Shown one piece after another: positions 9,818 through 64,000 of a stretch of DNA of 64,000 bases. The position numbers were made by a program, and so were the translations under genes. Under the pieces are notes generated by a model, which had not been told where the DNA came from, made no database searches, and saw nothing but the letters and a program-made list of their open reading frames with translations. Each line of letters starts with the position of its first letter. Positions within the stretch are counted from its first letter, which is position 1. Origin of the DNA: Cyanophora paradoxa CCMP329 (Eukaryota; Plantae; Glaucophyta); NCBI GenBank assembly GCA_004431415.1, contig QPMI01000534.1, forward strand, positions 235,099-299,098, given 5' to 3'.

Positions 9818-9854
<37 letters not shown>

Positions 9855-20675: not shown

Positions 20676-20771
20676 GTCCCTAGTACTCCCTACAGCCTAC
20701 AGGCTGCAGGCTGCAGCGCTAGCTATCATAGTGACATAGTATAGAAATAGCCTATAGCCTATACTATACTA

Positions 20772-21019
20772 CCGTAATGCACTTTATTAATGCGCGCACT
20801 TAATTAATGCGGCACCAAATTAATGCGTTTTCCGTTGGCAAAACGCATTAATTTGGTACCGCATTATTATCGAAACGCTAAGAAACTGCTGTATATGTAC
20901 CCCCAACCGCAGCCAAAAGGCTTCAAAACGCATTAATTTGGTGCCGCATTAATAGCCATTATAGGGGTCCGGGTCCAAAATCGCATTAATATCTGGCGCA
21001 TTAATTAAGTGCATTACGG
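20772..21019. mobile_element. Tc1/mariner-pogo-type MITE (248 bp)
   Basis: TIR CCGTAATGCACTTTATTAATGCGC vs GCGCATTAATTAAGTGCATTACGG (1 mismatch); TA on both sides; internal ATTAATGCG/CGCATTAAT repeats. Confidence 0.85.
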
Positions 21020-23316
21020 TATATGATAGCGGCACTCAGTGACTGCCGCTGCAGTGCCGCATCATCGCGGCATGCGCAGTGCTGCGGCACTGCGGCAGTG
21101 CAGCCTCACTGTGCAGTGCAGTGCCAGACACTGCCAGTGCAGCCTGCCAGGCTTGCAAGTTGCGACTCAACTTGCGAGTCTTGCGAGTCAGTTGCGACTC
21201 AAAAAAGTTGCGAGCCTCGGATGATCTGCCTACGCTACGAGTTATGGCTCTATGGCGCGATTTCCGCCATACAAACCTTTTTCCGAGTCAAGTTGATTGA
21301 CTCAACTCGGCAGAGCTCTCGACCAATGGCCGCCCGGTGCCCGGTTTCGAGTCAAATTAGTGTTGCCAGGTGCCCGCGTTTTCCCCGTACTAATTCGACT
21401 TGAAAATGCCAGTGTTTTCTGATTGGGCACGTGCCGGTATATTTCGCATGCTATATAAAAGCTGCTGTTGGCAGTTACTAGACGGCGGTTACTAGGACTA
21501 TACCAGGTAGCTACTAGAACCATACCAGGTACTAATTTACATAAGGGCAGGATCTGCCAGTTTCGCGCCCATGGCCAGTCCAGTCTGATCTGCCAGTTTC
21601 GCCCCAGGCTAGCGCTAGTCGGATGACTCGGATCCAGTCTGATCATGATCATGAGGCTCTAGATCTGAGCGCCGGCCGGCGCCGGCCCGCCGGGGCCGCC
21701 GGGCGCCTCGGCCCGCGCCGGCGGCCGCGGCCGCGGGCGCCGGCAGCCGCGCGCGGGCCGGCGCCTGCCAGCCAGTGCCAGCACTGCCAGGCAGCCCAGG
21801 CTGCACTGCCGCAGCAGTGCCGCTGCAGGCTGCAGCCTGCAGCTGAGTGCGCCTGAGTCTGAGAATGACTCAATCGCGGCTCGATCAATTATGTACGCCG
21901 CCATCTGATCTTCAGGGTAAATCAGAACACGTAGAGGAAATATGCAGATCGGGTGTAATTTAATGAATGTTGCGTTTTCGTTGTTTGAATGCGCAATTCA
22001 ACATTTGGTCCAGGCAGTTACAGAAACTACCCACTCGGTAATCTGGGTATACGTAGCTGCTGGCAGCCTGCACTGCGGCAGTGCAGCTGGCCCTGCGGCA
22101 CTGCAGTCACTGAGTGCGCATGCGAGGCTGGGGCCTAGCCGCCCAGTAGGCTTGCTGCCTCGAGCCTAGCCAGCTAACAAGCCGGCTAGGCTATATAGCT
22201 AGCGGACTTTGGCGGGCGGCTCAAGCCGGCTCGCAAGCCCGGCTAGCGCGGATCCGGATGGCGCTAGCCAGCTAGCCAGCTAGCCGCCAGCTGGCCGGAG
22301 GGGCAAGCCCCGTGGGCTAGACCAGGCCATTGGAGGGGGGGAGGAGCTTGAAAGGGGGGGGAAATCAGGCTAGCCTGGCAAGCCGGCTAGCGAAGGGTTA
22401 AAACGTTTTTGGCAGTCGAGGACTCGATTGCGAGGCATGCGCAAGCCTGCTTGCTAGCGGCTCGAGCGCTAGCCGATTTTCGGGCTGGCTAGGCTTGGCT
22501 CGATCGCGAGCCGGTCCCGGGGCCCGGGACTCGGGGGCCGGGAGTCCGGGACCGTCGAATCGTCGACCTCGGACTCGGGACTGTGGCGCCGGCCCCCAGT
22601 CCGACGGTCTGTGGGCCAGACTGTGGCCCTGACTCAGGCTGACTGTGGGCCGGGCCGCCCGGGCGGCCTGCAGCCTGCAGGCTGCAGCCTGCAGGCCGCT
22701 GCACTGAGTGCAGCTGCACTGCTGCAGCCTGCAGCTGCAGGCTGCAGCCTGCAGGCGGGGCCGCCGGCCCGCCGCGCCGGGCGCCGGGCCGCCGGCGCCG
22801 CCGGGCCGCCGGCTGCCAGCCTGCAGCCTGCCACACTGCAGCCACAGCGCCACTGTGCCACTAGCTATAGTACTGCGGCACTGGCAGCCGCACTGCCTGC
22901 CGCACTGCAGCCTGGCAGCGGCCAGGCAGCCGCAGTGCCAGCCTGGCAGCCAGTGGCAGGCTGCCGCGCGCCGTGGCCCGCGGGCCGCGGCGCAGTCGAC
23001 AGTGAGTGCTGAACTTCGGAATTCGAAGCAGCACCCAACGAGCTCCCCCGGGGCCCGGCCGGGCTGGTAGGCTGCGGCGGTACGGTAGCCTGATCAGTGA
23101 TCATCGGATCATAGAATGCTTCCGAAGTTCCGAAGTTCCCTGATCCGATGATCATGACTCAGTGAGGAGCTGCGCGACCGCCGGCCGCGGCCGACGCGGC
23201 TATCCGACGCACTGCGGCGGCATATGGCGCGACTCGCTGTGCGAGTCGAGCGGCCGCGGCCGCGCTGGCCATGGACTCGCGCCTGGAGTTGCGCAGCTGC
23301 AGCCCACTCTTGGCCG

Positions 23317-24981
23317 ATGATGGCGCGCCTGGTAATTGCAATTGGCCTGATAACTATAGTCGTGCTGATTTGCGGCGGATGCGTGAACGGTGCGCATGCT
23401 GTGCCACGCCTTGACCGCGCCGACCCTAGGCCTAGGCCTGTCACAGTGTTCTCGATGACTTTTGTGACCCCTCACGCACAGCGGAAGTCGTGCTCGATGG
23501 CACTGCAGCTGGCAGTGCATATGGGAGCGCTGACTACGAAGCGCATGCGCGCGCCGAGGCGACGGGCGGCGCTGGCGCCGCGCGGAGAGTTCTGCAGACA
23601 GCCACTACGGGAAGCGATGCCTACTCGGGCGCTCTGTGGGGTTCCCTCGCGCTGGAACTTGGCCCTTCGGCAGCGCAGGCGGACGACACATCGCTGTTAG
23701 AATGCTTGCGGGCCTGGGCCCCCGCCGACGGCGCCCTCGCCTGCACCTTCAGCCCGCGGCGCCGTAACGCCGCCCTCGCCGTCGAGGCCGCCGCGTGAGC
23801 CGCCCCGCGCTTTTCAGGTTGCACCCCGCGCCAAACCGATCGCGACGGGCGCGCAGGTTCGCGGTGCAGCTGACGAGCGGCGAGGCGAGCCGGACGGTGT
23901 TCCTGTCGGGGGCGAGCGCGTCGTCGTTCGCGTTCTCGGTGCCGGTGGCGGGCGTGCTCGGCCGGGCGCAGCTGCGCGCGTACCGAACGGCGACGGGTCG
24001 CGTCGTGGGCCGCCCACTCGACGTCGACATCGTCGGTGCGACTGGATCCGGATCGATCCCGCCCGGTCCTCGCGGGTTGTGCGGGTGTCTGATCGGGGGC
24101 TCGGCCGCCGGCAGGTACTCCGGACGCAACGTCGCAGCTCGACTGCGGGGTGCGGCTGCAGGCGGCCGGCGGGCCGGTCCGCTGCAGTGAGCCCGCCCCC
24201 CTCCTGCATCTGAGCGCGCGCGCGCGTTGCACTGACGTATTGTTGTGCAGCGTTGTACCCGCGGTCGATGGGGCGGGCGGTCGGAGTGGCGCTGGCGTCG
24301 GTGCTGGTGAGCGGAGTGAACGGGACGGCACAGCTGGCGGCGGGGGGCGCGTCCTCGGACGTGGCGGGCGTCGGGGGCATCGGGATCACGTTCTGGCTGG
24401 CGGCGGGGGCGAACGCGAGCGGCGGGGCGGTGCGGGCATTCGTGGGGCCAGTGGCGCTGTACCGCGAATTCGCCTTCTACGGTGCGTCCGCCGCCGCCAC
24501 CCTGCATACCATTTCCATCACGCGCTGGCAACGTTACGCTCTCTTCTGACACTTGGATTGATGCAGAGGCAGAAACGACTCCGCTGCTGGCGATCGCTCC
24601 TTCGCCGATGGCGTCGCCATCGCCCTCGCCGACTGCGAGCGCGAGCCCGTCGCCATCGCCGTCAGCGACAGCGAGCCCTTCGCCGTCGCCCTCCAGCACG
24701 CCGTCCCCGTCCCCGTCGCCATCACCGTCGGCAAGCCCGAGCCCATCGCCGTCGCCCTCGGCAAGCCCGAGCCCGAGCCCGAGCCCGTCGGCGAGCCCGA
24801 GCCCGAGCCCAAGCCCGTCGCCGTCGCCATCGCCATCGGCGACGGCAAGCTCGAGCCCGAGCCCGTCGGCGAGCCCGAGCCCGAGCCCGTCACCATCGCC
24901 ATCAGCGAGCCTGCGGCCGTCACCGTCTGCGAGTCCGTCGCCAAGCCCGTCGCCGTCGCCGTCCCCTTCGCCAAGCATGCG

Positions 24982-25012
<31 letters not shown>

Positions 25013-26465
25013 GCGAGCCCGAGTCCTTCTCCCTCGGTCACCCCGTCGCGAGCGCCTTCCCCCTCCGCGAGCCCCTCGCCGTCGTACACCCCTTCGCCGT
25101 CGCCGACGCCGGCCCCGCCGCTTCACCCGTGTGCGAACGTGCGCAAAGGCTCTTGCAAGCTTTGAATATGTCAACCTCTGGGGTGACCAATGTTGGCGCA
25201 GGCGTCCGATCCGAGGGACCTGTTCTCGTGCACGCTTTGGACCTCTCTCGCGCTGGAGCTCGGCCCGTCGGCGGCGCAGGCGGACGACACATCGCTTTTA
25301 GAATGCGCGCGGGCCTGGGCCCCCGCCGACGGCGCCCTCGTCTGCACCTTCAGCCCGCAGCGCCGCAACGCCGCCCTCGCCGTCGAGGCCGCCGCGTGAG
25401 CGCTGGCCGCCCCACGCTTCCCGGGCCGCGCCTCGCGGGCGACAAACGGGCGCGCAGGTTCGCGGTGCAGCTGACGAGCGGCGAGGCGAGCCGGACGGTG
25501 TTCCTGTCGGGGGCGAGCGCGTCTTCGTTCGCGTTCTCGATGCCGGTGGCGGGCGTGCTCGGCCGGGCCCAGCTGCGCGCGTACCGAACGGCGACGCGGC
25601 GCGTCGTGGGCCGCCCACTCGACGTCGACATCGTCGGTGCGACCGGATCCCGCCCGGGCCTCGCGGGTTGTGCGGGTGTCTGATCGGGGCCTCGGCCACC
25701 GGCAGGTACTCCGGACGCGACGTCGCAGCTCGACTGCGGGGTGCGGCTGCAGGCGGCCGGCGGGCCGATTCACTGCAGTGAGCCCGCCTCCGTCCCGCGT
25801 CTGAGCGCGCGCGCGCGTTGCACTGACGCATTGTTGTGCAGCGTTGTACCCGCGGTCGATGGGGCGGGCGGTCGGGGTGGCGCTGGCGTCGGTGCTGGTG
25901 AGCGGAGTGAACGGGACGGCACAGCTGGCGGCGGGGCCCGGGGGCGCGTCCTCGGACGTGGCGGGCGTCGGGGGCATCGGGATCACGTTCTGGCCGGCGG
26001 CGGGGGCGAACGCGAGCGGCGGGGCGGTGCGGGCGTTCGTGGGGCCGGTGGCGCTGTACCGCGAGTTCGCCTTCTACGGTGCGGCCTCCGCTGCCGCCCT
26101 GCGTTGTTTCGCGCCTTGAGACTAGAAATCGCAGGAATGTCAGCTGCATCAATTTCTGTGCCGGCAATCGTTCCGACGCCGTCGTCTTTGCCGTGGCCAT
26201 CGGCCCTAGCAAGCCCCACTCCGACCCCACTGAGCACGCCGCTGCCGTCGCCATCGGCGAGCCCACGGCCGAGCCCGAGCCCGAGCCCAAGCCCGTTGCC
26301 GTCGCCATCGCCATCGGCGACGGCAAGCCCGAGCCCGAGCCCGTCGGCGAGCCCGAGCCCAAGCCCGAGCCCGTCGCCATCGCCATCAGCGAGCCTGCGG
26401 CCGTCACCGTCGGCGAGTCCGTCTGCAAGCCCGTCGCCGTCGCCGTCCCCTTCGCCAAGCATGCG

Positions 26466-26496
<31 letters not shown>

Positions 26497-29400
26497 GCGA
26501 GCCCGAGTCCCTCGCCCTCCGCCGCCCCGTCGCGAGCGCCTTCCCCCTCCGCGAGCCCCTCGCCGTCGTACACCCCTTCGCCGTCGCCGACGCCGGCCCC
26601 GCCGCTTCACCCGTGTGCAAACGTGCGCAAAGGCTCTTTCCAAGCTTGATTAATATGTCAACCTCTGGGGTGACCAATGTTGGCGCAGGCGTCCGATCCG
26701 AGGGACCTGTTCTCGTGCACGCTTTGGACCTCTCTCGCGCTGGAGCTCGGCCCGTCGGCGGCGCAGGCGGACGGCTCCTCTGTGTTGGAATGCGAGCGGG
26801 CGTGGGCCCCTGCCGACGGCGCCCTCGCCTGCACCTTCAGCCCGCGGCGCCGCAACGCCGCCCTCGCCGTCGAGGCCGCCGCGTGAGCCGCTGAGCCGCC
26901 CCGCGCTTCCCGGGCCGCACCCCGTGTCCAACCGACGGGCGAGCAGGTTCGCGGTGCAGCTGACGAGCGGGGAGGCGAGCCGGACGGTGTTCCTGTCGGG
27001 GGCGAGCGCGTCGTCGTTTGCGTTCTCGGTGCCGGTGGCGGGCGTGCTCGGTCGGGCTCAGCTGCGCGCGTATCGCACAGCAACGGGGCGCGTCGTGGGC
27101 CGCCCGCTCGACGTCGACATCGTCGGTGCGACCGGATCCCGCCCGGGCCGCGCGAAGCGTGCGCGTGTCTGATCGGGGGCTCGGCCGCCGGCAGGTACTC
27201 CGGACGCGACGTCGCAGCTCGACTGCGGGGTGCGGCTGCAGGCGGCCGGCGGGCCGGTCCGCTGCAGTGAGCCCGCCCCCCTCCTCCATCTGAGCGCGCG
27301 CGAGCGTTGTGCTGACGAATTGTTGTGCAGCGTTGTACCCGCGGTCGATGGGGCGGGCGGTCGGAGCGGCGCTGGCGTCAGTGCTGGTGAGCGGCGTGAA
27401 CGGGACGGCGCAGCTGGCCGTGGCGGCGGGGCCCGGGGGCGCGCCCTCGGGCGTGGCGGGCTTCGGGGGCGTCGGGATCACGTTCTGGCCGGCGGCGGGG
27501 GCGAACGCGAGCGGCGGGGCGGTGCGGGCGTTCGTGGGGCCGGTGGCGCTGTACCGCGAGTTCGCCTTCTACGGTGCGCAGTTGGTTTGCATTCTGATTT
27601 GTTTGCGTGTTGTTAATCGCATGTGCTTAGCGCCAGTGTGGGGTCTTCCAATCATTAATCCTTTCGGCCCGGACCCATCTCCCTCGCGCATTCCATCGCC
27701 GTCGCCGAGCCCGCGGCCTTCGCCAACAGCGAGCCCGTCGCCCACAAGCACACCGTCGCCGAGGCCGAGCCCGTCGCCATCGCCGACAGCGAGCCCGAGC
27801 CCGTCGCCCACAGCCTCTCTGTCGCCAACGCCCTCGCCATCCGCCCCGCCGCCTCCCGTCGCCGTCCCACCGCCTCCAACCGCCACGCCTTCGCCTTCTC
27901 CCCTTGGTGCGCTTCCCGCTCATACCTGTGATCCCGATCGCGAATGCCGTTTCTGACATGCGCTGCAGTGTGTGGCACGCCTCCCTCGGCCGTCCAAGCG
28001 CGGCTCGTCGGGACCGACGCGGTTGAGCTGGCCTGGAGCCCCGCTCTGGCCGCACCAAACGCAGGCTGCCCGTCATTCGTCGTCGGGCTCTTCGCGACGG
28101 GCGGCGAGTCCTCCCCTGCAGCCGCCGCTGCGCTTTGGCTATCAAAGCCTCTCTGGACGTACGGCTCGCCCGCGTTCCGCCTGACCCTCTCGGACGCTAC
28201 CGGCATCAGCGCTGGCGTGCTCTACACCGTCCACGTGGTCACCGAGTCAGCATCCCTCGGCTTCGTGACCGGCTCGTCCGCCTCGGCCCTTCCGTCCACC
28301 GTCCTGGAGTTTCCGCGTGAGTAGCCCTCAGTGCGCTGGGTTCCCACTTTACAGATTCCGACGTTCATGCACAGTGACGGAGGCGTCGACGGTTCAAACG
28401 TCCTATGAGGTCCGCGCCGCCAGTGTCGGGACCGAGTGGGTCTACATCGTCTGGGGTGCGCGGAAATGTGTTTCGTGGTTTCGCCCCCGCTGATCAGAGA
28501 ACTCATTTGGCGCGGGCAGAGTCGTTCACGTTCAGCGCGGGGGCGTTCACGGGCGCGCGCCCCGCGTCGGGCTCCGAGGCGCTGGCGCTCGTCTTCGGGG
28601 CCGGCTGGGCCGAGCCGCGCTTCGAGGTCGCCGTCACGTCGGGGGACGGCGCACGGCTTGCGTGGGGCGGCCTCGCCGGCCCCGCCCACAACGCGACGGG
28701 TCTGCAACCCGGCGCGACGTACGGCGTGGCGGTGCGGCAGGGCTGGGTCGGCCTGTCGGACTCCTTCCTCGTCGACAGCGTCCTCGCACGCACCGCGTCC
28801 CCCCCAGCTGCCTCTTCAGGTACAAATCCGAAATGGGCTTCGAACATATAATTACAAGCTCACTGAGCGGGCCACAGCTGCAGGCAACTCGACGGCGGCG
28901 GCTGCGGAGGAATTCGTCGAGATCAGTCTGGCGCTGCTCTTCTCCGACACCGAGCTGGCAAACCTCGTCGAGCCGGAGGCGGAGGCGGAGGCGGGCTCCG
29001 GGGCGGACTCGGGTTCGACGGGCTCTGGCTCCGGCACGGGCTCCGGCTCTGCGTCGGGATCGAACGCGAATTCCACGTCCACGTCGCCGACGACGTCGAC
29101 GGGCGGCGGCGGCGGCACGTCCACCGGCACCACAGGCGGCGGCACCGCCGCCAGCGCCAGCACCACCGCCACGGTCGCCTTCTCGATCACATTCAACGTG
29201 CCCTGCTCCGACCTCACCGTGCGCCCGATCACCCTGTCGGATACCAATTCGCATATGCATAATTTTAAGTATAAGGTGGATGTTTATCGCTGATGGCGTT
29301 TCTCTGTGCAGGGAATGCTGGCGAAGCGAATGGTGCAGGCGTTGACTGAGGCGCTGGACCTGGAATCCGGCCAAGTCCGCTTCACCGGCATCCGTTGCGT

Positions 29401-50431: not shown

Positions 50432-52350
50432 ATGCGGGCAGTGAAGAAGCTCATCACGTCCATGAAGATGAAGGAGGGCGGCGGGTTCATCGTGAGGCGG
50501 CCCGTCGGCTCGGGCGGGCTGTCGTCCGTCGATCCGCTCCTGATGCTCGGTGCGCGTTTGCGTTTACAACGTACACCTGTGCCTGACCGCTCCTGCAGAT
50601 CACATGGTTCGCCGGCCCGTTTGAGCCGTCCGGCGCCGCCTGCGCGCTCCGACGCATTCCGCCGCTTGCAGGGTCCGGTGGAATATGGACCTGGCGAAGC
50701 CGTTGGCGCCCCCGACCAGTGCGCAAGCGCCGCCCTCGCCGCGCCCGATGCGACGACGTAATATGACGTCGACACGAATCGGACTGCGACCCGCCCCCGC
50801 GCAGCCCGCACCGTGGCCAGGAGACTGTTACGTACATTCTGTGAGCATCCGCGAAGCCCGGCGCGCCCCCGCGTCCCGCCGGACTCGAAACCGACGCGAG
50901 GGCCCGCGCCGGGCGGCGGCGCGCGCGCGCGCAGAGAGGGCGAGCTGCAGCACAAGGACTCCGCCGGCCACACGGGCGTCCTGCAGAGCGGCGACGTGCA
51001 GTGGATGACCGCCGGCCGCGGCGTCGTCCACTCCGAGGTTCCTTCCTTTCGCCCCCTCTTCCTTTCTATGCTCCTAGAGCTCAAGCCGCGACAGATGCCC
51101 TCGGATCGAATCATACGCGAGGGCGGCCGCATCGAGGGCTTCCAGGTCCGCGCCGGATTCGAACCCGCGCTCCGGTCCCCGCCAAATTCGCCGAGCCGCC
51201 GCGCCGCAGCTCTGGGTCAACCTGCCCCGCGTGGACAAGATGATGCCCCCCCGCTACCAGGTGCACATCGACATCAGCCTCCGCCCCTTCTTCCTTCTTT
51301 TGAGCATGTACCCCTCATACAGGACATCCGGGCCTCGTCGATCCCCACGGCGACGTCTCCGGACGGGAAAGTGACGGTGCGGCCCCGTACCCCCCCCTCA
51401 CCCCCCCGCCCCCTTGACAGACACTTATCTCAACATCTCCTCAGGTTCGGGTCGTGGCGGGGGAGAGCATGGGCCATAAGGCTGTCATCGACACGCGTAC
51501 CCCCATCATGTGCGCTGCAGCTCCAGGGGCCGCGCCCCGTAATCGTACCCGTGCTCGTCGGTGACCCGTACCCCGCAGGTACCTCGACATTGCACTCGGT
51601 ACCCCCAAGCCCCCGCCCCCTGCCGCTCTGTTCCCCGCCGATCCGCTCGAATCCCCCCGCAGCGCCTGGGGCAGAATTCACGCAGCCGGTACCCCCCGAC
51701 TTCAACGCGTGTGCACCCCCCCTGCCCCAGGAATCCACCCGCGCGGATTCGAACCCGCGCAGCTTCGCGTACGTCTTCCGGGGGGCGGCCCTCTTCGGTC
51801 CGGCCGGCCAGGCGAGCGAGCCCCTACCCCCGCACCGGAAACTGTACCCCCACACCCACCCCTAATCGTGTACCCCCAGGAGCGGGAGGCGAAGGAGAGC
51901 GATGCCGTGGAGCTGGGGCCGGGCGACTCTCTCCGCATGCTCGGCGGCGACCAGGCGCGCGTACCCCCCTTCATCTTCCCGCCTTCCTCTCCTGAGCGTG
52001 TACCCCCCTTCCAGGGCGCACGGCTGCTGCTCATCGGGGGCCGGCCCATCAACGAGCCCGTCGTCTGGCATGGGCGCGTACCCCCCTTGAAGCAAGTGCC
52101 GCTCGCGTACCCCCTCCTAACGGACGCGCAGGCCCTTCGTGATGAACGCGCGGGAGGAGATCGAGCAGGCCATGCAGGTCACCGCGTACCCGCCTCTCCA
52201 CACGTGCCCCCCTTAAGACGCATCGTACCTCCCCTGCAGGACTACCGAGCTGGGCGGCTGGGGGCGATCGAGGGGGCGGAGGAGCGGTACCGGCAGACGG
52301 AGGCGGCTCGGGCGCGGGCCGCCGCCTCCGACAAGCTCTCTACTCACTAG
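50432..52350 (+). CDS. Pirin family protein (about 16 exons)
   Basis: [15 protein letters not shown]|[22 protein letters not shown]...[32 protein letters not shown]|PFVMN; stop TAG 52350. Confidence 0.92.
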
Positions 52351-52650
52351 CTAGCTGTAGCTCTAGCCGGCCAGGCCTACGTATACCGGTCCGGCAGGCC
52401 TAGGGGCCGGCCGCGTTCGAGTTCGCGAGCTCGCGGCGACTTGCGCCGAGTCGCGCGCGCGCCGGCGAGGCGAACGATCCCTCGAGCTCGCGCCCTCGTG
52501 CCACGGTGAACGCGACAGGCACCTTAAGCTTAAAGCTTGCCGGCGCCGCTCCGACTCAGGGCCGAGGCTCATGAACGTAGTATACGCCTCGGAGCCTAGT
52601 ATACGTAGCCTCGTACGCGTACAACGGTACTAGCTAATACCGTAGTACTA

Positions 52651-52888
52651 CTGTAGGAATGCTTAAATTGGCGCGTAGTCAAATTGCCGAATTCGACCAA
52701 AACCGGAATTGCCGTGGCGATAAATTAAATATTGCCGAAACTCTGGATTTCTTCTATGGCGCCATACAAAATCGGTCGTTTAGCCCTACCCCCTGAGAAT
52801 TGCCGTGGCTTAAAATTGCCAAATTCGGCCTCTCGGCAATATACGTATACGGCAATTTAAAACATCGGCTAAAAAAGCAATCCTACAG
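52651..52888. mobile_element. TA-flanked MITE (238 bp)
   Basis: TIR CTGTAGGAATGCTT / AAGCAATCCTACAG (1 mismatch); TA on both sides; internal ATTGCCG repeats. Confidence 0.75.
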
Positions 52889-52953
52889 TACTAGGCTATG
52901 CCATGATGATATGTACCGTACGCGTACTACGGTAGCCTAGGCCTCGGTAGCTA

Positions 52954-53212
52954 CCGTGTAAGACTTAAATACCGCGTCACAAATTAATTAGCGCGTTCCA
53001 AAAATTTGGGCCCGATTTGCGCTTTACTAATTAAAGTTACCGCGCTACCAAATTACCGCGCCGCGGGCCCGCGGCGTTCCATGATGAACTTCCATCGTCT
53101 TCGAAAATGTATTATTTGTTAGCAAAGGGGGTAATTCTGCGCTACCAAATTACTGCGTTCTAAAAATTTTGAGCGCAGTAATTTGGTAGCGCAGTAGTTA
53201 AGTCTAGGGCGG
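52954..53212. mobile_element. Probable degenerate MITE
   Basis: AGACTTAAATACCGCG (52961) inverted to CGCAGTAGTTAAGTCT (53190), 14/16 match; internal CTACCAAATTAC repeats; right TSD not clear. Confidence 0.5.
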
Positions 53213-55178
53213 GGGGAGTCCTGAACGAACATACAGTAGTTCGAACGAACCTGAACGAACAGCCATTTTGCTGAACTGAACGAACATGAACAAAGCGGCC
53301 GCTGTTCACTGAACAGGGGAAGATTACTCTAGCAAAGCGTACGAGTAATCTGCTTTCTTCTAGCGAAGGCCGAGCCGAACGCGAAAGCAGCTTGCACGAG
53401 CCGCGCGCCTGCGCATGCGCATGCTGCTTGCGATCGCGATCATCGGATCGCGATCGGACGCACGGCGTACCCAGATCTGCGAGCCAGGGCGCGGCGGTAC
53501 CCGCATATATATGCATCTGCGATACGGGCTCGCTGTACCCGGGCCACCGGCTCAGTCGTCGGGTACCCGTCGACTGCCCGATTTGCCGGGCGTGTTGCCG
53601 ACCCTCCCACCATCCCCTACATCACCGAAGCTTTACGTTCGATCGAAGCCCCGCCGAGCATTTACAAGCCCTCGGCCTAGGCCTTGCAATTGACCAGCTA
53701 CTTTTCATGGTCTTGGATCGAATTCGATGTCAGGTTTGCTGCGGCTGGCAGCTGCAGGCTGCCAGGCTGCCAGCTGCAGGCCTAGGCTGATCACCACGGG
53801 GTTTATTTCTTCCCCTGGTCTATTTTTCATGTACAGCAGTTTATCACTTCACAGGCTTAGCCTAGTAGGAAACGCGTTTCCTTAGGTTGCTCAGCATCAC
53901 TAGCTATAGTTTTCAACCTTAGTTCCTTTCATTCCGCCGTCCGAGATCTAGAGAGGTTGTTTTCCGGTTGTGACCTTCCCACACAGCGCTTCAAAAGAAT
54001 TTATTAGCGCCAAGTCGAAATTCATTTATTCCCCCCCCAAAAGGGGTACGCTAGAGTCTAAGCGCTAGCCTCAGCGTTAAGGCATGGCGACGGCGACCTC
54101 CACCCCATCACCTCTAGCTCTGGCAGCGAGCAGTATTGCCTAGCTAACATCGATTGGATGGGTCCTCGCCACCTGAGGCCGCCCGGATCGCCCGCCCGCC
54201 CAGGAATCGGCTTCTGAGCGGCCTGACGCCAGCGGCGCATCCGACGTATCCACCGACTAGCCGGCATGGCGAACGCTCTTTCCGATTAGGGCGAGATCGG
54301 CGCGCTGTAGCTAGAACGGCTGTCTCACGCACCACTTTTTGAACCTTGGTCACTGGGGGAGCGGGGACATGGAAATCCGGCAATGTACAGCGCTCTAGCT
54401 ATCGCTTTTGACGCGTTCGCACTCGGTCGAAGCGCGCTAGCTAGCCGGGATGGTTGTACGACTTCACGCCATAGTAGCCCGGATTCTCCCCCCCCCCTCG
54501 ACTTGGCGGAAAAATATTCTTTTGAAGCGCTGTGCCAGGGCCCGGAAGCTACGGCTTCACGCCTTCCGCGGGCCTAAGCGCAAGCTTTTGGCTGTTCATG
54601 CGGGGGTTTATCTGCTACGTATACGGCGGATCTTTATTTTCCAGTTGGCTCAAGAAGCTGTACCCCCCTCGAAATCGCTTACCCCCTGCGGGCGCGATAT
54701 GAGTACCCGGGCAGCAAATGCGTACCCCCCGGCACACGGGGAGTGAAGAGATATCCTCCCCAACCACGCCCACGAGGCAATGAGTGGTCTACCTTTTCGG
54801 GCCCTAGGCCTGGGCCCTCTCGGCGGCCCCTCCTTTGGCGCTGCGCGCCCTTGGGACGCGGCCCAATTGCAATGAGGTGCCCCGCACGGCCGCGGGGCTC
54901 TACTTGCTGCCGGCCGGACCACCGCGGGGCGGCCGGTTCTCTTCTTACCCCCTCATCCTTCGAATTCCTTGCGGCGGCCAGAGGCCGGCACGCTGCGGAC
55001 GCGTTTGGCTGCGGCCGTAAGCGTGGAAGAACAACTTGTCAGCAAGGGGGCCCCCGGGGCCCCGGTTTCGGGCGATTTTCGGCACCGAAATTGACACCGA
55101 ATTCGAAACCGTCGGAAACAGGCCTAGGCCTAGGTGATTTTGGGCACGGAAATTAAACCGTCGGAAACCTGTTCAAGG

Positions 55179-55366
55179 TAGAGATGGGGCTCGAGCCGGG
55201 CCGGCTCGAGCCGAGCCGAGCCGAGCCGGGGGGGCGGACCGGCTCGAGCCGGACTCGGTCGGCTCGAGCCCACGGCGAGCCAAGCCGCTCGAGGGCTACA
55301 GCGCGGCCGGCTCGAGCCGGGTCGAATTTTGTTAGGGGCGAGCCGGCGAGCCGGCGCGCCGGCTAG
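55179..55366 (+). repeat. hAT-like terminus with GAGCC/GGCTC subterminal repeat array (partner end not found)
   Basis: Begins TAGAGATGG, followed by many GGCTCGAGCC/GAGCCG copies in both orientations. Confidence 0.5.
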
Positions 55367-55828
55367 ATTATATTCCTAGTCCTGGAATATTCGCCAACGG
55401 CTCAATTTATATATACGTGGGCGTCGACCTGGAATCCGCGAACCGCCAGCTCTCGAGCTTTATGAATCCATTGTTAACCCTCGGAGGTTTGCGTGAGTCA
55501 CGCATCACGGAGATTTGAGTGTTATATTGCGATCTCGTACACCCGACACTAACAGGGGGGGCTAGCACTAACCCACGCGGGGCAGTAACAGTCAGCGTAC
55601 CCCTCGCGCGGACACCAACAAGCACAGCTGCTGACAGACTGCCTTACCCCTCTGGGGCCCCGCGGGGCTAACTCCACTGGGGTGCTAACTAAGTGCTGTA
55701 CCCCTCTCGGGCCAGCTTCTGATTCGGCCCAACATTTTCTGAGCCTAGGGCAAAGTGAGCTTAGCTTGAAGCAGCACGTCAAGTGCGGCAGCGCTAGCCC
55801 AGTAGTAGCCAGCGGCATCATTTGCAAT

Positions 55829-56436
55829 ATGTCTGGATCATTTGATTGGAATGCAGCTTTTATCTTCGCCCTTCTCCCAAACGGGGGCTACACGAGCTTT
55901 ACAGTAGACAAGCGACGGGCACCAGCGCTCTGGATGTACCAATGGCAAGTAGCCTCTGCGGATGGACAGAGCTGGCCGTACACAGTATTGCCAGACGGGA
56001 AGGTGGCCTACGCTCATCATTTTCTATTCGGGTACCCCCTCGGCCTGCCCAACGACGACTGCGCGTCGACAGCATCAGCGGGTGCAAGCTGGACCTGCGC
56101 AGGGAGAATCTACGGCTCATGGACTGCGGAGGTCGGCTTGGGGCGGTTCCTGTGGCAGGCGACAAGCTTCCAAGCAACAAAGGCAAGTGTCTGACAAAGA
56201 GGAGGAAGCGAGCCTACGAACAGAGCCAAGTCCAAGCAATGATTGACGAGCTGTCTGCAGAATCAAAGGAAAGCCGCTACTGGCGCGTCTCTTTTCGCCC
56301 AGGCCAACCGGCAGTGATAGAGTACGGCCTTGCCGCTCATGATGCGATAGCAAAGGCGCGCAAGATAGCTGAAGCAAAGGATGTGCACTCTGTAAGTCGC
56401 CCAGCTGCAGCTGTACATGTTGTGTCCACCTCATGA
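55829..56436 (+). pseudogene. Degenerate HNH_3-type endonuclease-like gene, frameshift near 56056
   Basis: FTVDKRRAPALWMYQW...YAHHFLFGYP in one frame, continuing in another frame as LRVDSISGCKLDLRRENLRL (cf. VDHINGxKLDNRRENLR). Confidence 0.65.
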
Positions 56437-56655
56437 AAAGTTCTAATAGAAGTTTCCAAGAGGTGGTCACATCCCGCAAGTCTGCAGAGCTCGAGCTCTT
56501 GCCTGTACCCCGGTCCTCTAGATGCCATGATATTGAGTACCCCTAGCAGGGCTGTGATCCCCCAACCCCTCCTGCCCGCCAGGCCGTCGGTTGTGCTGCA
56601 CTCGACTTTTTCTGAAGCACTCATGCATATCAACTGCGAAATCAAAACGAACATT

Positions 56656-59600
56656 ATGCACGTCAACTTGCTAGACGAGCTGCCCTTCGCCGAGGAGGCA
56701 GATCTAGATGCCGAGGAAGAGGATCTCTTTGCATGCTTCCCGTTCGTCTCGGTCTCCAAGGCCTGGTCGCCTGCGATGGGGGTGGTCTACGCTTTGAGCC
56801 TCGCCCCGGGCGTGAATCCTTGCCAGGTCGCGCCCGGCGAGTCGGCTTGCGATGCCGCGAAGGCTGTCGTGGGCAGGACGGGGGCGTCAGCTTCTCCGCG
56901 AGCTGGAGGATGGACAGAGCGCGCACTTCGTTCTGCAGGGCGCCGAGGCCTCCACCATCTTCTCTTGGCTCTTCGGCGGCCTCGCGCCTGGGTCGGAGCT
57001 CCGCCTCTGCATCGAGCCTGACGGGGGGTAAGCCTGCGCCGAGCTAAAGGGGCTCCCGCTGTAGGCTTGCCTGCAAACTTCTTGGAAGATCTGCCCGCGG
57101 ACTTCTTTGACGACTTGCCCGAAGAAGGGACGGAGGCGGCGGGCCAGCGGAGAGGGACCGATGGAGGGACAGAGGAACAAGGCGCCGGTGAGAGGGGTAC
57201 AGAGCAGGCCGCTGGGTACAGGTCGCTGGAGACCAAGCCGCGGGCGAGATCCTCAAGCGGGCCCTCGCTCTCCTGCGGGGCAGCATGTCGGTTCGGGGCG
57301 AGCTGGAGAGGGCGGGGACGCGCTCGGGGTGCACCTGCGCCTGGAGTCGTCGAGGGTGCTGCAGGCGAGGACGGAGCCCGACGGGTCGCTGGCCTTCGAG
57401 CTCGAGGTGGAGGCGCGTCCGAACTCCCGCCTGGAGGTCCAGATCTGGAACTTCAGCCTGCAGGCGAGGCTCTCAGATGGAGGCGGCGGCGCCAAGACGA
57501 AATCCTACGCAACGGACCTTCGGCGCGGCGTCTCCCTTGACACCGCCCTCCCGTCCCTCCTCCTCGCCCTGCGATCCGTCGGCCATGCTCCATTTGCGGC
57601 GAGGGAGGTGGACGAGCGGTACCTGAGCCGCGAGCTGCTGGAATCGACCTTTGGCGAACTGAAGCCCGATCCCGGGGCGCCCCGCCGGATCGACGTGATC
57701 TGCAGCGGGCTCAACACCGGCAAGACGAAGGCGCTGATTGAAGCCTACGTCCGCCCGGCGCTCGAGTTGAAGCGCAAAATCCTCGTGCTCACCTGCCGTC
57801 GGGCCTTCTCTCGCGACCTCAAGCGCCGCCTCGACGAAGCCTCCCTCCCCTCGGTCGCCGTGCTCTACTCGGACGTCTGGCGCCCCAAGGACCCCGAGAG
57901 CGCTCACGGGACGTGGGGCTTCCGCGATCCGAGGATACAGGTCGTCATCTGCACGATCGATTCGGCTCACAAGGTGCAGGACGACTGGCAGGGGCTCGAG
58001 GACCTGGGCGAGGGCGGCGGCGGGCGCCTCCTGGTCGTGCTCGACGAGCTCTCCTCCCTCACGCGACACTTCACCTTGAGCTCGACCTTGGAGCCCGTGG
58101 CCGGTGGGCTGGGGGCGCGGAGCCTCCCCCGCAACCTGCGTTGCGCCCGTCTCTGGCGGGGAATCGAGGGCGCACAGGAAATCGTCGCGCTGGACGGCTA
58201 CGTGAGGCCCACGGACCTCGCTTTCCTTGGCAAGTCGGCGGCAGCAACGGGGGCTCGGCTCGCCCTCCTATTCAACCATCGGCGGACCTGCGACTGGCGG
58301 ATGCGCCTGTCAGACAGCCCCACCGCCGTCGAGCGTGACCTGATGTCAAGGTGCCGCCCCGGCGGCCTGCGCGCCATGATCATCGTCGAGACAGCAGGCC
58401 GGGCGCAGGCATTGGCAAGCGCACTTAGGAAGCAGGCCGCCGAGATCTTGGAGCGAGATCCAGCCTGCGCCCCCGGGCCCTTCACAATTGGAATTGTCAT
58501 AGGGCAGGCTAGAGATAAACAGTTCGATTACAGTGACGACGGCAGGGTCCACGTGAAGAAGCTCGATCTGGCCGAGGAGGGCGGCTACAAGACCTGCGAC
58601 GCGGTCATTGCGACGTCGGCCTTGGGGGCGGGCGTAGACTTCTCGGATGCGCACTTCGACAAGATCTACGGAATCTTCGACGCCAAGATGCCCCTACTGG
58701 AGGCCGACGACATCGTACAGCTGCTGTTTCGAGTGAGGCGGCTGCGGGGCCAGGGCGAAGGGACAGGGGTAAAGGGAAGCGAGCACCTGCTGCTGTCCGT
58801 TCGGCGGTGCAGCGTGACGCCCGTTCGCGCCTCTGATGCTGCACGGCACTGGCGCGAGTCAGGCGACACCCCCAACGGCCCCGGCCTCCCCACCGAGGCG
58901 CCGGCAGTGGAGACGTACCTGGATCTGAAAGCCGAGCACAACGGAGACAGGCGCGCCTCCATGCCCTCCAGGCACCTGAGCGTTGCCGCCCGGCTCCGCC
59001 AGCTCTCCATCCGTCCTTCTGAGAACCTGTGGACGACCGCAGATCAGGGCAAGCCCTCGGCGAGGAAAGAGCAAGAGCGACGGAAAATGGAGATCGACTG
59101 GGTGCACAAGGCTGCACCGATGGACGTGCCGCAGATCCTGGCCCTTGCCGAGTCCTGGGATGGCTCACTGGAGAGCACAGCGTTCGAGACCGTCCTCTCG
59201 CTGGCGCGGCAGTCAATTGCGGATTTCATGGTGCTAGACCTGGCGACGCTCACTGCGGGGGACGTCGAGTGGATGTGGGAGTCACGCTACTCTCTTGGCC
59301 GCAAGGCGACGGCGAGCCTTGTGCTCCTGGACAGTCAGAGCATCGAAGAAATCGAGCCGCCGAGCGAGCGGCTTTACCTTTCGAAGCTCGTGGCCGTATT
59401 CAGGGCGATTGGCTGGACGGGCGAGGGTGACCGAGCAAAGGACGTCCTATGGGTCGATAAGCTGTGTCGGGGCTTGGCGTCGGAGCAAGGCCGAGCGGCT
59501 TACCGCGAGCTGCAGAGTCTGGACCCGAAGTGCCCGCCCTTCGATCCCGCTAGGTACAAGTCAGAAAGGGCCGTCGCAATGCAGGCCCGCCGAGTGGCAA

Positions 59601-59875
59601 GGTACCTGTTCGAGACGTGCAGGGGTGTCAGGAAGGTCTCAAGCGTGCGTGATGGAGGAGCGATGCAGAACAGAAAGCGCAAGTACCTAGCATGCGAGGG
59701 GGATCCGATGAGCGATGTGCTGGGCAGACAGGCGGGCTCAGCGGCGCAAACGTCAGTCCTTCACTATGCAGACGCGTACCGGGTTTTCGTGAAGTGCTAC
59801 GATCTCATACGCCTGCGCTCGGAGGTGGCACTTGCTGGCACAGTTAGAACGAGCGCAATGGAGGTAGGCAAGTGA
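56656..59875 (+). CDS. Herpesvirus UL9-like origin-binding SF2 helicase
   Basis: CSGLNTGKT, VLTCRRAFSRDL, VICTIDSAHKV, VVLDELSSL, IVALDG, ATSALGAGVDFSDAHFDKIYGIF and IVQLLFRVRRL correspond to UL9-family motifs I-VI in an uninterrupted ORF from ~57320. The N-terminal part needs one intron (~57028-57064) plus frameshifts at G-runs, so the start is uncertain. Confidence 0.85.
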
Positions 59876-60024
59876 TTAGTGTTCGAGAAACGGTCCAATG
59901 TGTACATCTGACAATTAAGACAAGTGAGAACATCTGAACATCTAAACATTTGCTCTGCGAGTGTGCTGCATTCTGTTACATCTGCACCGTAAGTTACAAG
60001 GCGATACAACGAAATTTGCTTGAC

Positions 60025-63000
60025 CTAGGCCGTCGGGATCTTGGCGCCAAAAGCCCGCCAAACGCGCCCTGTGCTCCCACCCCGCTTCGACCAGACAACG
60101 CCCGCTGCCTCGTAGGCGCCCTTGATCGTCGTGACGCTGGAGTTGAGCACGTACTTCTTTGCAGCGGCGTCGATATCTGCAGCCTTGAAGTAGTTGAGCG
60201 CGCGCAGGTACTGCTTGAAGTGCTCCTGGAGAGCGGGCTGATCTGCCGTGTCACTCGGCTGCCCCGTGGCGATGGTGCCGATCCACTGCAAGCAATTGCA
60301 GAACGTTAGAATGTGAACACAAAATGAGCAAAGGCCGAGAGCGGCACCTTACTCCAGCAGTACTCAATCGATTTGACGGTGCTGTTGCGCTCAGTCGCCT
60401 GCTGCTGTGTGCTGAGGATCTCGCTGCGACGAAGTGCAATATCGGGGCAGTAGAATTGGGAGGCCGACGACAAGGGATCGTAAAGCTTCTGGAGGCCGCC
60501 GCCGTCGATGAAAGAGAGGAGGACGCGACGAGAAATGATCATCTTGGCAAGCGCTACGCCAAGGTTGTAGGGCTGCAGGCAGCTCTCCTTGAAGTTAGAC
60601 TCGGCTTCGACCTGCGGCCAAGCGATCATGATTGAGACCAGCCAGATCGGAAGATCGGAATCACCGGCTTGTTGAAGGGAAGGTACAGAAGTCGGCGGCT
60701 CATGTCGCCCCCGCAGTCCTTGTAGAGGTGCTGAGCAGCGAAAACGTGAGCTCAAAGCCGAGCTTAAAGCCGAGCTCAAAGCCGAGCAAGACACACCTGA
60801 GAGAGGCCCGTGGGGTTGCCAGCCGTCCAGACAACAGCCCGCAGGCAGGCCTTGAGCGGGGGCTTGTTCTTTGCCTCGATGCTGACTGGATCGTGCCCGC
60901 TAATCGTCTTGATCTTCGACTGCAGCGACTGGCAGGGCAAGAGGATGTGAGCTCAAGAATAATAATTGACTCTGGCAAACGGACCTTGAGCTGCGTGGAG
61001 TTGCCAACTTCGTGAATGAAGAGGGCAGAGACAGGCTCGTGGCAGTCGTAGATGCAAGAAAGCATGAACTGCGGCGAGGAGTCCTTCGATGGGGTCTCGC
61101 AGGTGATGAGCTTCTCGACGACCGCCTGCAGTGTGCTCTTGCCGGTGTTGCCGAGCCCCTCGAGGTGCACAATCTTCGAAGGCGCAAAACGTTAGAGAGC
61201 TGAATGGGAGGTCGAATAGAGAGGAAGTTGAATAGAGAGCGGAATAGAGCGCAGCAAGTCAGCGCACCGCGTCCTGCCTGGGATCACTGGCGATGCCGAT
61301 GCCACACACGCCGTAGAAGAAAGTGTCATTGATCCCTTGATCTCGGCAGATCTTGTCCAGCGGGCAGAGCATGGCCATCAAGCTGTTGTAGTCGTACTGA
61401 CAGCCAGTTGCGTCCGCCAAGCAGTTGGGAAAGTAACTGCACGGGCCGCGCGCCCCTCAGAGAGTTAGAGATAAAGGGAGAGAGCAGCCAGCTCACCGAT
61501 AGCCATAGGAGAACGACTCGGAGTTCTCCCACGAGGCCGGAATCTCCATGACAGAGGGAGGGTTCGCGCCGTTGTAGCGGTAGAGCACTCCGGGATCGCG
61601 GATGTTCACTGCGACGTCGTCGAAGCTGACAATGAGATCGGTGGTCTTGACCTGCTTAACCCAAGCGGGGTCATGCAGGATGGAGGCGACGATCTTGTCG
61701 AGCAGCTCGGCGCGGCTGGAAGCAAACACGTCTGACTTGCTGCGGCTGGATGACATGATGCGGGGCCGCTTGGGCTCGTGCTCGCGTGCGTCTTCATCCT
61801 CCTTGATGGCGAATGCAATCCGGTCGAGAATACGGTTGGCGTACGCTCGGACTGTTGCGTGGCCCTTGAGGCCGTTGAAGGGCGTGTAGCTGTACGTCGG
61901 GCGCCGATCGGATGTGAAAGCAAGTTGCTGGGCGAAAGGAGGGAGCTCGCAGTCAGATGGTATCAAGGAGAATCGGTGGATTGCAATGAGACCTAGAGCT
62001 CACCAAAAGCTCGCCCCGGCGGGGATCGAATGCCATGAACTCGTCGTCCAACTGCTGACGCACCGCTGCCAGGACGCCAGTCTTGATGGACCACTCGGCA
62101 AGAAGGGCATCCGTGGCCTCCGGTGAAAGCGGCTCAACGGGCGGGGCCTCTGCGATGTTTGAGATTGCACCCTAGGAGAAGGAAACGAAAATCAGTCGTA
62201 GTCTTGAGAGGCGGGCGCAAGTCTAGAGAGGCCGCTTTAGAAAACTGGGGCGAGAGAAGGCGGAGCAGACCTGGGATGAGGCGCCCAGCAAGACTGCGGG
62301 GTCGAAGCACGCAGCCCAGTCCATCAGTGCATGCTCACAGGCCTCCTTCGGGCAGACATCTTCGATGCGATACTTCGAAGACACCCCGTTGGGCTTGGCG
62401 GCGAGGAGGAGAGTGAAGCGCTTCGGCTGGCGGTAGCTGAATGCCACGTTGATGATGACTTCGTATGAACGCTCGTTCTCATCTGCGGCACAGGTGCCAG
62501 TGAGATTGAGAGCAAGTTCATGCAAGGGATAATCTAGATAGAGACGAGAAAGACAAAGCTGCGCGCATACCAAGTACATCCATGGTCGTCTTGAACTTGA
62601 GCATCGAGATGCCAACGGTCGCCTGGGGGCGGCGGACACACTGGCCCCTAGTGGACTCGATGGCATGCAAGCGGACGGGCCCAGAGGCGAAGTCGCAGGT
62701 GCTGTTCGGACGCGAGAGGTGCATCGTGAGGACCTTCTCCGTCAGGGCGACCGCCTGCTTCAGGCCGTTCACGGCGTACAAGGGCTCCCAAGCCTGCGCA
62801 CGGGCCAGAAGTGAGCCGCCGGCGCATGAATGAAAAGAAGGGAAAAGGGAGAGAAAGAGGGGAAAGCGAGCGCGCAGTCTGAAAGTGCGCACGGGCTCGT
62901 CTGAATCCGGCTCATTCGCTGCAGGGGCCGCGGGCTTCCCTGGCAGCGAGGGCTCCGAGGGCGACGGGGACGAGATCACGGCGGGCGACGAGGTCGGGCG

Positions 63001-63200
63001 CAGCGGCGTCGAGCTCGGGCCTTCAGCGTCGTTGAGCTGCCTTCGAGATGGAGTGAGCGTCGCCGAGCCCGGCGTTCTGCTGCACGGATCCGGGCCCCGT
63101 GAGCAGCGGGCGCTGGGCGGGATTGCGGCATGGGTGCGCACTTCGACTCGGCAGTAGCGGAGGCGGGAGAGACGCGAACGAATGCACTGCGAGCGTGCTG
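60025..63200 (-). CDS. D5-like superfamily 3 helicase, about 11 exons
   Basis: Spliced D5_N-like LIVSFDDVAVNI; Walker A HLEGLGNTGKST; Walker B LFIHEV; B' KIKTISGHDPVSIEAKNKPP; motif C VWTAGN; Arg finger MSRRLLYLPF; wHTH-like C-terminus GRVWRAF; stop TAG 60025. Start codon uncertain. Confidence 0.85.
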
Positions 63201-63814
63201 CTCCATGCAATCGGCCTCACTGCGCACATGGCAGGTGAGCATGGAGCTGGCACTCGGGCTGTGGTTGCGAGAAAACGAGGCAAATCCCGCGCCCCGGCGG
63301 ACCAGCGACTCGCGTGCACCTTCTTAGTCGATAGAGACGCAAAGCGGATGGCGCGCTCGCAGCCTGGATCGTCCGGGCTCACCGCCGACCTGCGCCCCGC
63401 CGAATTCAAAATCCCGCGACAAGGGTGAGCGGGCGCCGCGCAGGTCGGCTTCAAATGCTTCTAGGATGAGGCTCTGAGGTCGCAGGATCGGCGTGCACCT
63501 CTGTGAGGCGGAGAGAAGCGAAGGTCGGTGCGCGACTTGCCCTCGAACCTTGCGGCGGGCGGCGGGCGACCCTGCGGCGGCACAGTGCGATCGCCGGTCA
63601 AGAGAGCTTTCCGTAGCAACTTTCCGGGCTTCGGGAGCCCACCGTGGCGCGAAATGGCGGTCCGCGGTCCGGAGCACCCCAAGGACGGCGGCGGCGCGAC
63701 CGGCGAGGATGCCGACGAGCTCAGAGCTACCTGCTCTATCGCCTGCTGTGCCGGAGCGACGGCGGGCTCGCTAGTTCAAGAGCAGCTCGAAGCTAAGGGG
63801 GAAGACTGTGGAGG

Positions 63815-64000
63815 GGGGTACGTGTTATGTCCAAATGTCCAAGTGTCCAAGTGTCCAAGTGTCCAAGGCCTAGGCCTAGGCCTACGATGAGCTAGCGCTA
63901 GCTATAGCGGGGTACATGTTATGTCCAAATGTCCAAATGTCCAAATGTCCAAATGTCCAAGGCCTAGGCCTATAGCTACGATGAGCTAGCGCTATAGCTA
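63815..64000. repeat. 94-bp tandem repeat, each unit with five RTGTCCAA 8-mers plus palindromes
   Basis: Units start GGGGTAC at 63815 and 63909; (A/G)TGTCCAA x5, then AGGCCTAGGCCT and TAGCGCTA; array truncated by the window end. Confidence 0.9.

What the first reader, a model, noticed from the sequence alone, without database searches (positions are those of the whole stretch)
63815..64000. Iteron-like array (5 x RTGTCCAA per 94-bp unit) near an origin-binding helicase gene
Hierarchical repeat: five 8-mers followed by palindromes (AGGCCTAGGCCT, TAGCGCTA), with the unit itself tandemly repeated. Short iterated sites plus palindromes are the architecture of viral and plasmid origins and of some TE termini. 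Inference: binding sites for the UL9-like or dead-HNH protein.
Basis: partly seen in the sequence, partly recalled or inferred. Interest (0 to 1): 0.7.

Follow-up and report, generated by a model that had tools for sequence, protein, structure and literature searches.

The report
Repeat array beside algal element's helicases
The repeat is real and sits directly beside two virus-like DNA helicase genes that occur together in about four copies in an alga's genome, and it likely marks where one of those helicases would bind to start copying the element, though a transposon end is not ruled out.

Summary
Observation confirmed: two head-to-tail 94-bp units (second cut by the window end), each with five RTGTCCAA 8-mers, unique in the window. 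The host is the glaucophyte Cyanophora paradoxa. The array abuts the 5' end of a spliced D5/P4-type SF3 helicase gene that converges on a UL9/CyRepA1-like SF2 helicase gene; the pair recurs in about four copies, and a read contig joins sister copies to the same array. A degenerate, inverted echo of the 8-mer lies in the 149-bp gap between the two genes (suggestive only). This layout resembles phage P4 (ori upstream, crr downstream of alpha) more than herpes oriS: no inverted boxes, AT-rich spacer or RVKNL motif. The palindromes are ordinary for this genome. Against: the array also has other flanks in reads, transposon-like elements in the window carry similar subterminal arrays, no origin-binding domain is shown in the SF3 protein, and the DNA beyond base 64000 could not be read. 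Best reading: binding array, probably origin, of an undescribed integrated DNA element (0.45).

The parts
63815..63908 (+). 94-bp unit 1: GGGGTAC, RTGTT, five RTGTCCAA (63827-63866), then CTAG-rich palindromic stutter
63909..64000 (+). 94-bp unit 2, 91% like unit 1, five ATGTCCAA (63921-63960), cut by the window end
63806..63814 (.). Left limit of the stretch shared with a second flanking context seen in reads; on the minus strand 63821-63806 reads like a host intron end (GTACCCC...CAG)
   Evidence: loose ends at 63806 and 63909; motif contexts
63643..63818 (-). Stretch covered by a contig of a probable RNA run; it stops at the array edge and breaks at a minus-strand GT (63642): likely an upstream exon of the SF3 helicase transcript
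   Evidence: table 8 (X16 record 10); strand inferred from the splice site
60025..63206 (-). Intron-rich D5/P4-type SF3 helicase gene (gene model g17490, 787 aa, Walker A GLGNTGKST), spliced in a probable RNA run
59876..60024 (.). 149-bp gap between the two convergent helicase genes, 59% AT, with five YARATGT on the minus strand (59984, 59952, 59944, 59936, 59910): degenerate inverted echo of the array motif
56656..59875 (+). UL9/CyRepA1-like SF2 helicase gene (model g17489; open frame 57065-59875 in the window; sister models start at the ATG at 56656)
55589..56436 (+). Two overlapping frames with an HNH-like motif by eye (recalled consensus, no library hit); read contigs show a one-base gap here, so the break may be an assembly error
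52646..55400 (.). Nest of short high-copy repeats with terminal inverted repeats between the single-copy pirin gene and the helicase block; no RTGTCCAA array; left end of the element not defined

Best explanation
The array lies at the 5' side of a D5/P4-type helicase gene in a block of about four copies, and it is likely the high-affinity half of a two-part binding system, with a degenerate second half just downstream of the gene, on which the element's own helicase would load to start replication. Shown: the repeat, its linkage to the helicase pair in sister copies, the SF3 and SF2 helicase families, splicing of the SF3 gene. Suggested only: that the downstream motif cluster is related to the array. 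Inferred: that the block is a mobile or virus-derived element, that the SF3 protein (rather than the UL9-like one) reads the 8-mer through a C-terminal winged helix, and that binding starts replication, as alpha does at ori and crr in phage P4.
For: Linkage: a 675-nt contig with 20 substitutions spans 63276-63938, through the unit 1/unit 2 junction, in X1, X3 and X2; element depth is 3.8-3.9 times the window allele's in three runs. The two helicase genes have adjacent gene numbers on 3 of the 4 contigs that carry this subfamily of the UL9-like gene. The adjacent gene is of the P4/D5 primase-helicase kind (DUF5906; TIGR01613 E 1e-9, below cut-off; Atlas 0.96), a family whose Reps bind short iterons (PMC9371898, passages). 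The gap between the genes is the most array-like of 427 tiles under 4 of 8 definitions, 3 of 427 under 2 more, and holds 5 of the 10 YARATGT outside the array. P4 has the same 8-mer on both sides of alpha, with two 120-bp repeats of five sites each (record annotation). Array depth is only 2.1-4.9 times the element's.
Against: The gap cluster was first seen by eye; it is weak under 2 of 8 definitions (8 and 32 of 427), and 1 to 37 of 210 composition-matched 8-mer families fit the gap as well. No winged helix is shown in the SF3 protein: no Pox_D5 hit, no significant likeness to the P4 alpha C-terminus, model pLDDT 28; no primase domain was found. The array has no inverted sites or AT-rich tract in the window (AT 47-54%, longest A/T run 4). 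Reads show a second left flank at 63806 and another right flank at 63952. Elements with terminal inverted repeats in this window carry similar 8-9-mer arrays. The likeness of the 8-mer to the P4 iteron (6 of 8) is no evidence: 11% of all 8-mers do as well. No integrase, transposase, capsid or element end was found in the window.
Confidence: 0.45

Rival explanations
1. The array is the subterminal repeat of a DNA transposon end (of this element or of a separate one inserted at 63806), bound by a transposase and unrelated to replication initiation; the 94-bp unit is a local tandem duplication.
For: Short elements at 20770-21021 and 52646-52893 have terminal inverted repeats with 8-9-mer arrays (9 and 6 copies) and TA/CTAG-rich stutter beside them. 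A second left flank joins at exactly 63806 in 3 of 4 runs, and at the matching place of unit 2 in the fourth. In 2 of 13 unrelated metagenome loci (L004, L013) the same 8-mer forms inverted arm pairs.
Against: No inverted array or second end in the window; the stutter and the unit junction are shared by sister copies, so they are not host flank of single insertions; depth is far below the high-copy repeat at 52.6-53.2 kb in X2; a separate insertion would not explain the motif echo at 59.9 kb.
Confidence: 0.27
2. The array is a promoter/enhancer repeat or a slippage-built minisatellite at the 5' end (or in a first intron) of the SF3 helicase transcript, with no role in replication.
For: A contig of a probable RNA run stops at 63818, at the array edge; the 8-mer number varies between copies (5 or 6); runs of the same 8-mer arise in 13 unrelated metagenome loci; minus-strand 63821-63806 resembles host intron ends.
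Against: A contig end cannot show a transcription start; two-level repetition kept in several copies and the downstream echo argue for more than slippage.
Confidence: 0.15
3. The UL9-like SF2 helicase is the binder and the array is an oriS-type origin.
For: HSV-1 OBP is the top structural match and the alignment reaches its DNA-binding domain (model 394-947 to chain 105-808, Z 6.2, rmsd 8.2, 227 residues); the gap cluster also lies just downstream of this gene; its C-terminal part ends in a basic hairpin.
Against: Model pLDDT 37 and Z under 8; no RVKNL in 12 of 12 aligned proteins; oriS needs inverted boxes around an AT-rich spacer (PMC12543377, passages), absent from the array in the window.
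Confidence: 0.08
4. The unit is the start of an LTR (TGTTA...) behind a polypurine tract (GGAGGGGGGTAC), the 8-mers being U3 enhancer repeats of a retrotransposon fragment.
For: Both left contexts end in a purine run followed by TGTTATG, as at a 3' LTR (recalled pattern).
Against: GGGGTAC occurs 52 times in the window, mostly as an intron motif; no second LTR copy and no retroelement domain among the frames scanned.
Confidence: 0.05

Closest known systems
Satellite phage P4 replicon (alpha primase-helicase, ori and crr)
   Same: D5/P4-type SF3 helicase (profile match to alpha's helicase domain, E 8e-10 in a one-sequence search with a profile that includes a bacterial member); one 8-mer motif on both sides of the helicase gene; a twice-repeated unit with five 8-mers.
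   Different: In P4 the doubled unit is downstream, 62% AT, with spaced sites in both orientations; here it is upstream, about 50% AT, head to tail in one orientation. No primase or winged-helix domain shown here; the gene has spliceosomal introns and sits in a eukaryotic nucleus beside a second, UL9-like helicase.
SaPI/PICI Rep and ori (PMC9371898, passages read)
   Same: Same helicase kind (top PDB sequence match 7OLA; its identity as a SaPI Rep is recalled); short repeats immediately downstream of the helicase gene in an AT-richer gap.
   Different: SaPI origins have at least two iterons on each side of an AT-rich centre pointing in opposite directions; the gap here has five sites one way and at most one inverted, and the strong array is upstream.
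HSV-1 oriS with UL9 (PMC12543377, passages read)
   Same: A UL9-like SF2 helicase is encoded 3.9 kb away; 8-bp sites.
   Different: No inverted boxes, AT-rich spacer or RVKNL motif; similarity is remote (10% identity in the structural alignment).
Subterminal repeats of DNA transposons and MITEs (recalled; in-window examples)
   Same: Tandem 8-9-mers next to a G-run and TA/CTAG-rich palindromic stutter.
   Different: No terminal inverted repeat pair or target-site duplication seen; unit is doubled in tandem; low copy number.
Endogenous giant-virus elements and Polinton-like viruses (GEVEs reported in C. paradoxa, PMC12344493 section 9)
   Same: Virus-type helicase genes integrated in an algal genome in several copies.
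   Different: No capsid, polymerase, packaging ATPase or integrase in the part seen; no relatives in viral contigs; host single-copy gene within 3 kb on the left.

Membership tests
P4/SaPI-type helicase-iteron origin | Adjacent D5/P4-type SF3 helicase | tested here: met
   DUF5906 (29.1 bits over cut-off 27.6 in sister P0011, 26.2 in P0010); TIGR01613 E 1e-9, below cut-off; Atlas
P4/SaPI-type helicase-iteron origin | C-terminal winged-helix origin-binding domain | tested here: inconclusive
   No Pox_D5 hit, no significant alignment to alpha's C-terminus; helix-helix-helix-strand-strand order only in a pLDDT 28 model
P4/SaPI-type helicase-iteron origin | Primase domain or primase gene | tested here: inconclusive
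   None detected in P0010 or P0013; sequence beyond 64000 unseen
P4/SaPI-type helicase-iteron origin | Short iterons next to the helicase gene, same motif at more than one site | tested here: inconclusive
   Array upstream is clear; relation of the downstream cluster is suggestive
P4/SaPI-type helicase-iteron origin | Inverted iterons around an AT-rich centre | tested here: inconclusive
   Absent from the 186 bases seen, but the array is cut by the window end
P4/SaPI-type helicase-iteron origin | Specific binding and replication in cis | not testable with these tools
   needs binding and replication assays
Herpes oriS/UL9 | SF2 helicase with UL9-type C-terminal domain | tested here: inconclusive
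   PF02399 over 58 residues; HSV OBP top match at Z 6.2 from a poor model
Herpes oriS/UL9 | RVKNL recognition motif | tested here: not met
   absent in 12 of 12 proteins of alignment A1, several of them partial
Herpes oriS/UL9 | Two inverted boxes separated by an AT-rich spacer | tested here: not met
   all ten 8-mers in one orientation, longest A/T run 4 within the bases seen
DNA transposon or MITE subterminal repeat | Terminal inverted repeat with an inverted array at the other end | tested here: inconclusive
   none in the window; right side unseen
DNA transposon or MITE subterminal repeat | Same end found at different flanks | tested here: met
   second left flank at 63806, another right flank at 63952; only 26-35 letters each
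DNA transposon or MITE subterminal repeat | Target-site duplication and cognate transposase | not testable with these tools
   no genome held
High-copy or subtelomeric satellite | Long arrays, high copy number, no link to the helicase genes | tested here: not met
   linked in sister copies; depth 2.1-4.9 times the element's (rough, contig depth is not a copy number)
Polinton-like virus or GEVE | Capsid, packaging ATPase, polymerase or integrase genes | tested here: inconclusive
   none among frames scanned in the window; element continues beyond it

The most novel reading that the evidence does not exclude
Cyanophora paradoxa carries an undescribed, still transcribed family of integrated DNA elements that encode two initiator-type helicases of different ancestry (an intron-rich P4/D5-type SF3 and a UL9/CyRepA1-like SF2) and use a P4-like two-part iteron origin, a bacterial satellite-phage replication design working in a eukaryotic nucleus.
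Probability: 0.3. Interest if true: 0.75.

Novelty: new variant of a known kind. Interest (0 to 1): 0.5.

Why it matters
Sequence-defined origins read by an element's own helicase are well known in phages, plasmids and herpesviruses but are not a standard feature of elements integrated in algal nuclei. If this array is one, it gives a cultured alga, a spliced and apparently expressed helicase gene and a defined 8-mer for a direct binding test, and it points to a class of self-replicating elements that repeat annotation left as 'unknown' (11.5% of this genome, PMC6704402, passages). If it is a transposon end, it is ordinary, but the two-helicase element beside it remains undescribed in the searches made.

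Tried and rejected
No genome is held for the window, so the sequence beyond 64000 and a genome-wide count could not be had. Array patterns found nothing in viral contigs (0) or prokaryote genomes (0); the metagenome scan gave 13 loci, and the top 60 blastn and first 40 tblastx rows I viewed matched only the 8-mer run. No viral-contig relatives of either helicase. The plus-strand frame 63654-63887 that runs into the array has no homologue among 65 candidates and no Pfam hit; rejected as a gene, on weak evidence. No run is on record as RNA; X15 and X16 are guessed RNA, and exon joins in X16 support that guess. Loose ends at 62430, 62918, 63563 and 63884 were set aside: two of them share the same depth in three runs and may be one contig with short chance matches. 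The 15-of-17 match to the unit start at 56412 is reached by 1 of 40 shuffles with many query windows: not used. An HSV Box 3 8-mer at 59924 also occurs at 11766 and 16727: chance. Likeness to the P4 iteron sequence: chance. The SF3 structure model was unusable and was not searched. A brute-force exon assembly returned nothing; the EukProt model was used. No Rfam match in 52000-64000. Introner idea: three papers listed, none on point by title; not testable. Supplements: that of PMC6704402 could not be read and may annotate the neighbouring gene; the one file of PMC12344493 does not name these contigs. Literature searches that found no description of this element: (listings only); searches found no usable paper on subterminal repeats or P4 iterons, so P4 facts come from the GenBank record.

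Full report
Observation. The array is as described: ten RTGTCCAA 8-mers in two runs of five, inside two head-to-tail units of 94 bp, 91% alike, the second cut at base 64000. No other doublet exists in the window even with 3 mismatches (8 matches, 0.36 expected, 0 of 100 shuffles). The palindromes are real but common here: both named ones recur elsewhere, the window has 685 perfect palindromes of 8 nt or more, and the units fold like shuffles, although this spot has the densest TAG-type hexamers in the window.

Host and context. Homologues of the long plus-strand frame are all gene models of Cyanophora paradoxa (9 of 9 hits). That protein is a UL9/CyRepA1-like SF2 helicase: PF02399 just over cut-off on 58 residues, CyRepA1 E 2e-11 below cut-off, Atlas neighbours of the same kind, HSV-1 OBP as top structural match at Z 6.2 from a model of mean pLDDT 37. 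A 2706-nt contig of a probable RNA run covers six listed exon pieces with no differences and joins across introns, so the window's copy appears to be transcribed and spliced. Among 1.84 billion representatives it has only 4 hits, 3 from this organism and one bacterial PriCT-2 protein.

Copy number and linkage. The close UL9-like subfamily is on 4 contigs; on 3 of them the SF3 gene has the adjacent gene number, and a fourth SF3 copy lies on another contig. A second subfamily (41-47% identity) is named on 16 contigs, with no SF3 partner found. Read contigs agree: single-copy up to 52710, a nest of high-copy short repeats to about 55400, then a block at about four copies. A 675-nt contig with 20 substitutions, an extra 8-mer and a 4-base insertion runs from 63276 through the unit 1/unit 2 junction, so sister copies carry the array in the same place. 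The 14 DNA runs that hold most of the block are one species label and may be one strain: they are not independent. Depth over the array is 2.1-4.9 times that of the element in three runs (run X9 was left out of that sum because no contig of the window's allele was listed at the reference place), which fits a few more units or a few more loci, not a large satellite. Contig depth is a rough guide only.

Other flanks. Short contigs join the unit to a different left flank at 63806 (3 of 4 runs, and at the matching place of unit 2 in the fourth) and to a different right flank at 63952 (2 of 4 runs). Neither flank is in the window. They could be the far side of the same array, the other end of the element, the second subfamily, or a separate transposon; 26-35 letters cannot decide.

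A second motif cluster. The 149-bp gap where the two helicase genes converge holds five YARATGT on the minus strand, half of the ten outside the array. Using only the array's 8-mer and its rotations, the gap ranks first of 427 tiles under 4 of 8 definitions, within 3 of 427 under two, and 8 and 32 of 427 under the other two. Against 210 composition-matched 8-mer families, between 1 and 37 fit the gap as well, 7 to 21 under most definitions. I noticed the cluster by eye first, so this is suggestive, not proof.

Mechanism. P4-family and SaPI Reps are self-loading helicases that bind short iterons through a C-terminal winged helix; SaPI iterons lie right after the rep gene (PMC9371898, passages). 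In P4 the same 8-mer lies upstream of alpha (ori, six sites) and just downstream (crr, two 120-bp repeats of five sites). The window has the same parts in mirrored order: a doubled five-site unit upstream and a loose cluster downstream of a helicase of that kind. I therefore read the array as a likely binding site and origin half for the element's SF3 helicase (0.45). The steps not shown are the binding domain, a primase, an AT-rich melting region and any activity. The 6-of-8 likeness to the P4 iteron is chance level.

Rivals. A transposon subterminal array (0.27) has in-window precedent at 20770-21021 and 52646-52893 and fits the alternative flanks. A promoter repeat or slippage minisatellite (0.15) fits an RNA contig that stops at 63818 and the 5-or-6 variation. 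An oriS/UL9 origin (0.08) fails two defining features. An LTR start (0.05) rests on a motif that occurs 52 times in the window.

Novelty. GEVEs are reported in this alga (PMC12344493, section 9 read) and 11.5% of its genome is unclassified repeat (PMC6704402, passages), but five searches (listings only) showed no description of this two-helicase element or its repeat. Earlier scan notes describe similar helicase-iteron pairs in bacteria, phages and one fungal element; they are unchecked and were used as leads. Verdict: real feature, first reading partly supported, new variant of a known kind, interest 0.5, limited mainly by the unseen sequence beyond the window.

Noticed in passing
L004:5883-6074 and L004:11849-12032: In an unrelated 124-kb metagenome contig the same 8-mer forms palindromes (inverted runs around a 24-48 nt centre); two such palindromes are 98% complementary long inverted repeats around 5.85 kb of mostly unannotated genes, one with an F-box. 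Looks like a self-contained element or an invertible segment in a large DNA virus.
   Followed up: partly
window 55408-57400: Contigs of two probable RNA runs show a join at 57271-57334 with CT..AC ends, i.e. a minus-strand intron: a spliced transcript antisense to the HNH-like frames and the start of the UL9-like gene.
   Followed up: no
window 55589-57100: One-base differences in runs of G or C break the HNH-like and UL9-like frames in the window relative to read contigs and sister gene models; probably long-read assembly errors.
   Followed up: partly
window 20770-21021: A 252-bp element with 26-bp terminal inverted repeats and nine ATTAATGCG-type subterminal sites in both orientations.
   Followed up: partly
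window 52646-55400: Nested short repeats; read contigs skip 53308-55046 and 53979-54534 in other copies, and one joins 55032 back to 53316.
   Followed up: no
whole window: GTACCCC/GGGGTAC occurs 52 times, often at intron donors or shortly before acceptors, and tandem stutters of 6-bp palindromes are pervasive.
   Followed up: partly
EukProt models P0004-P0009, P0014-P0026: A second, more numerous subfamily of the UL9-like helicase (16 named contigs, 41-47% identity) with no SF3 partner found; its context is unknown.
   Followed up: no
window 6987-10200 and 24600-27900: Long Ser/Pro-rich coding repeats of period 6-72 in several copies, with weak TrAA12-like hits beside them.
   Followed up: no
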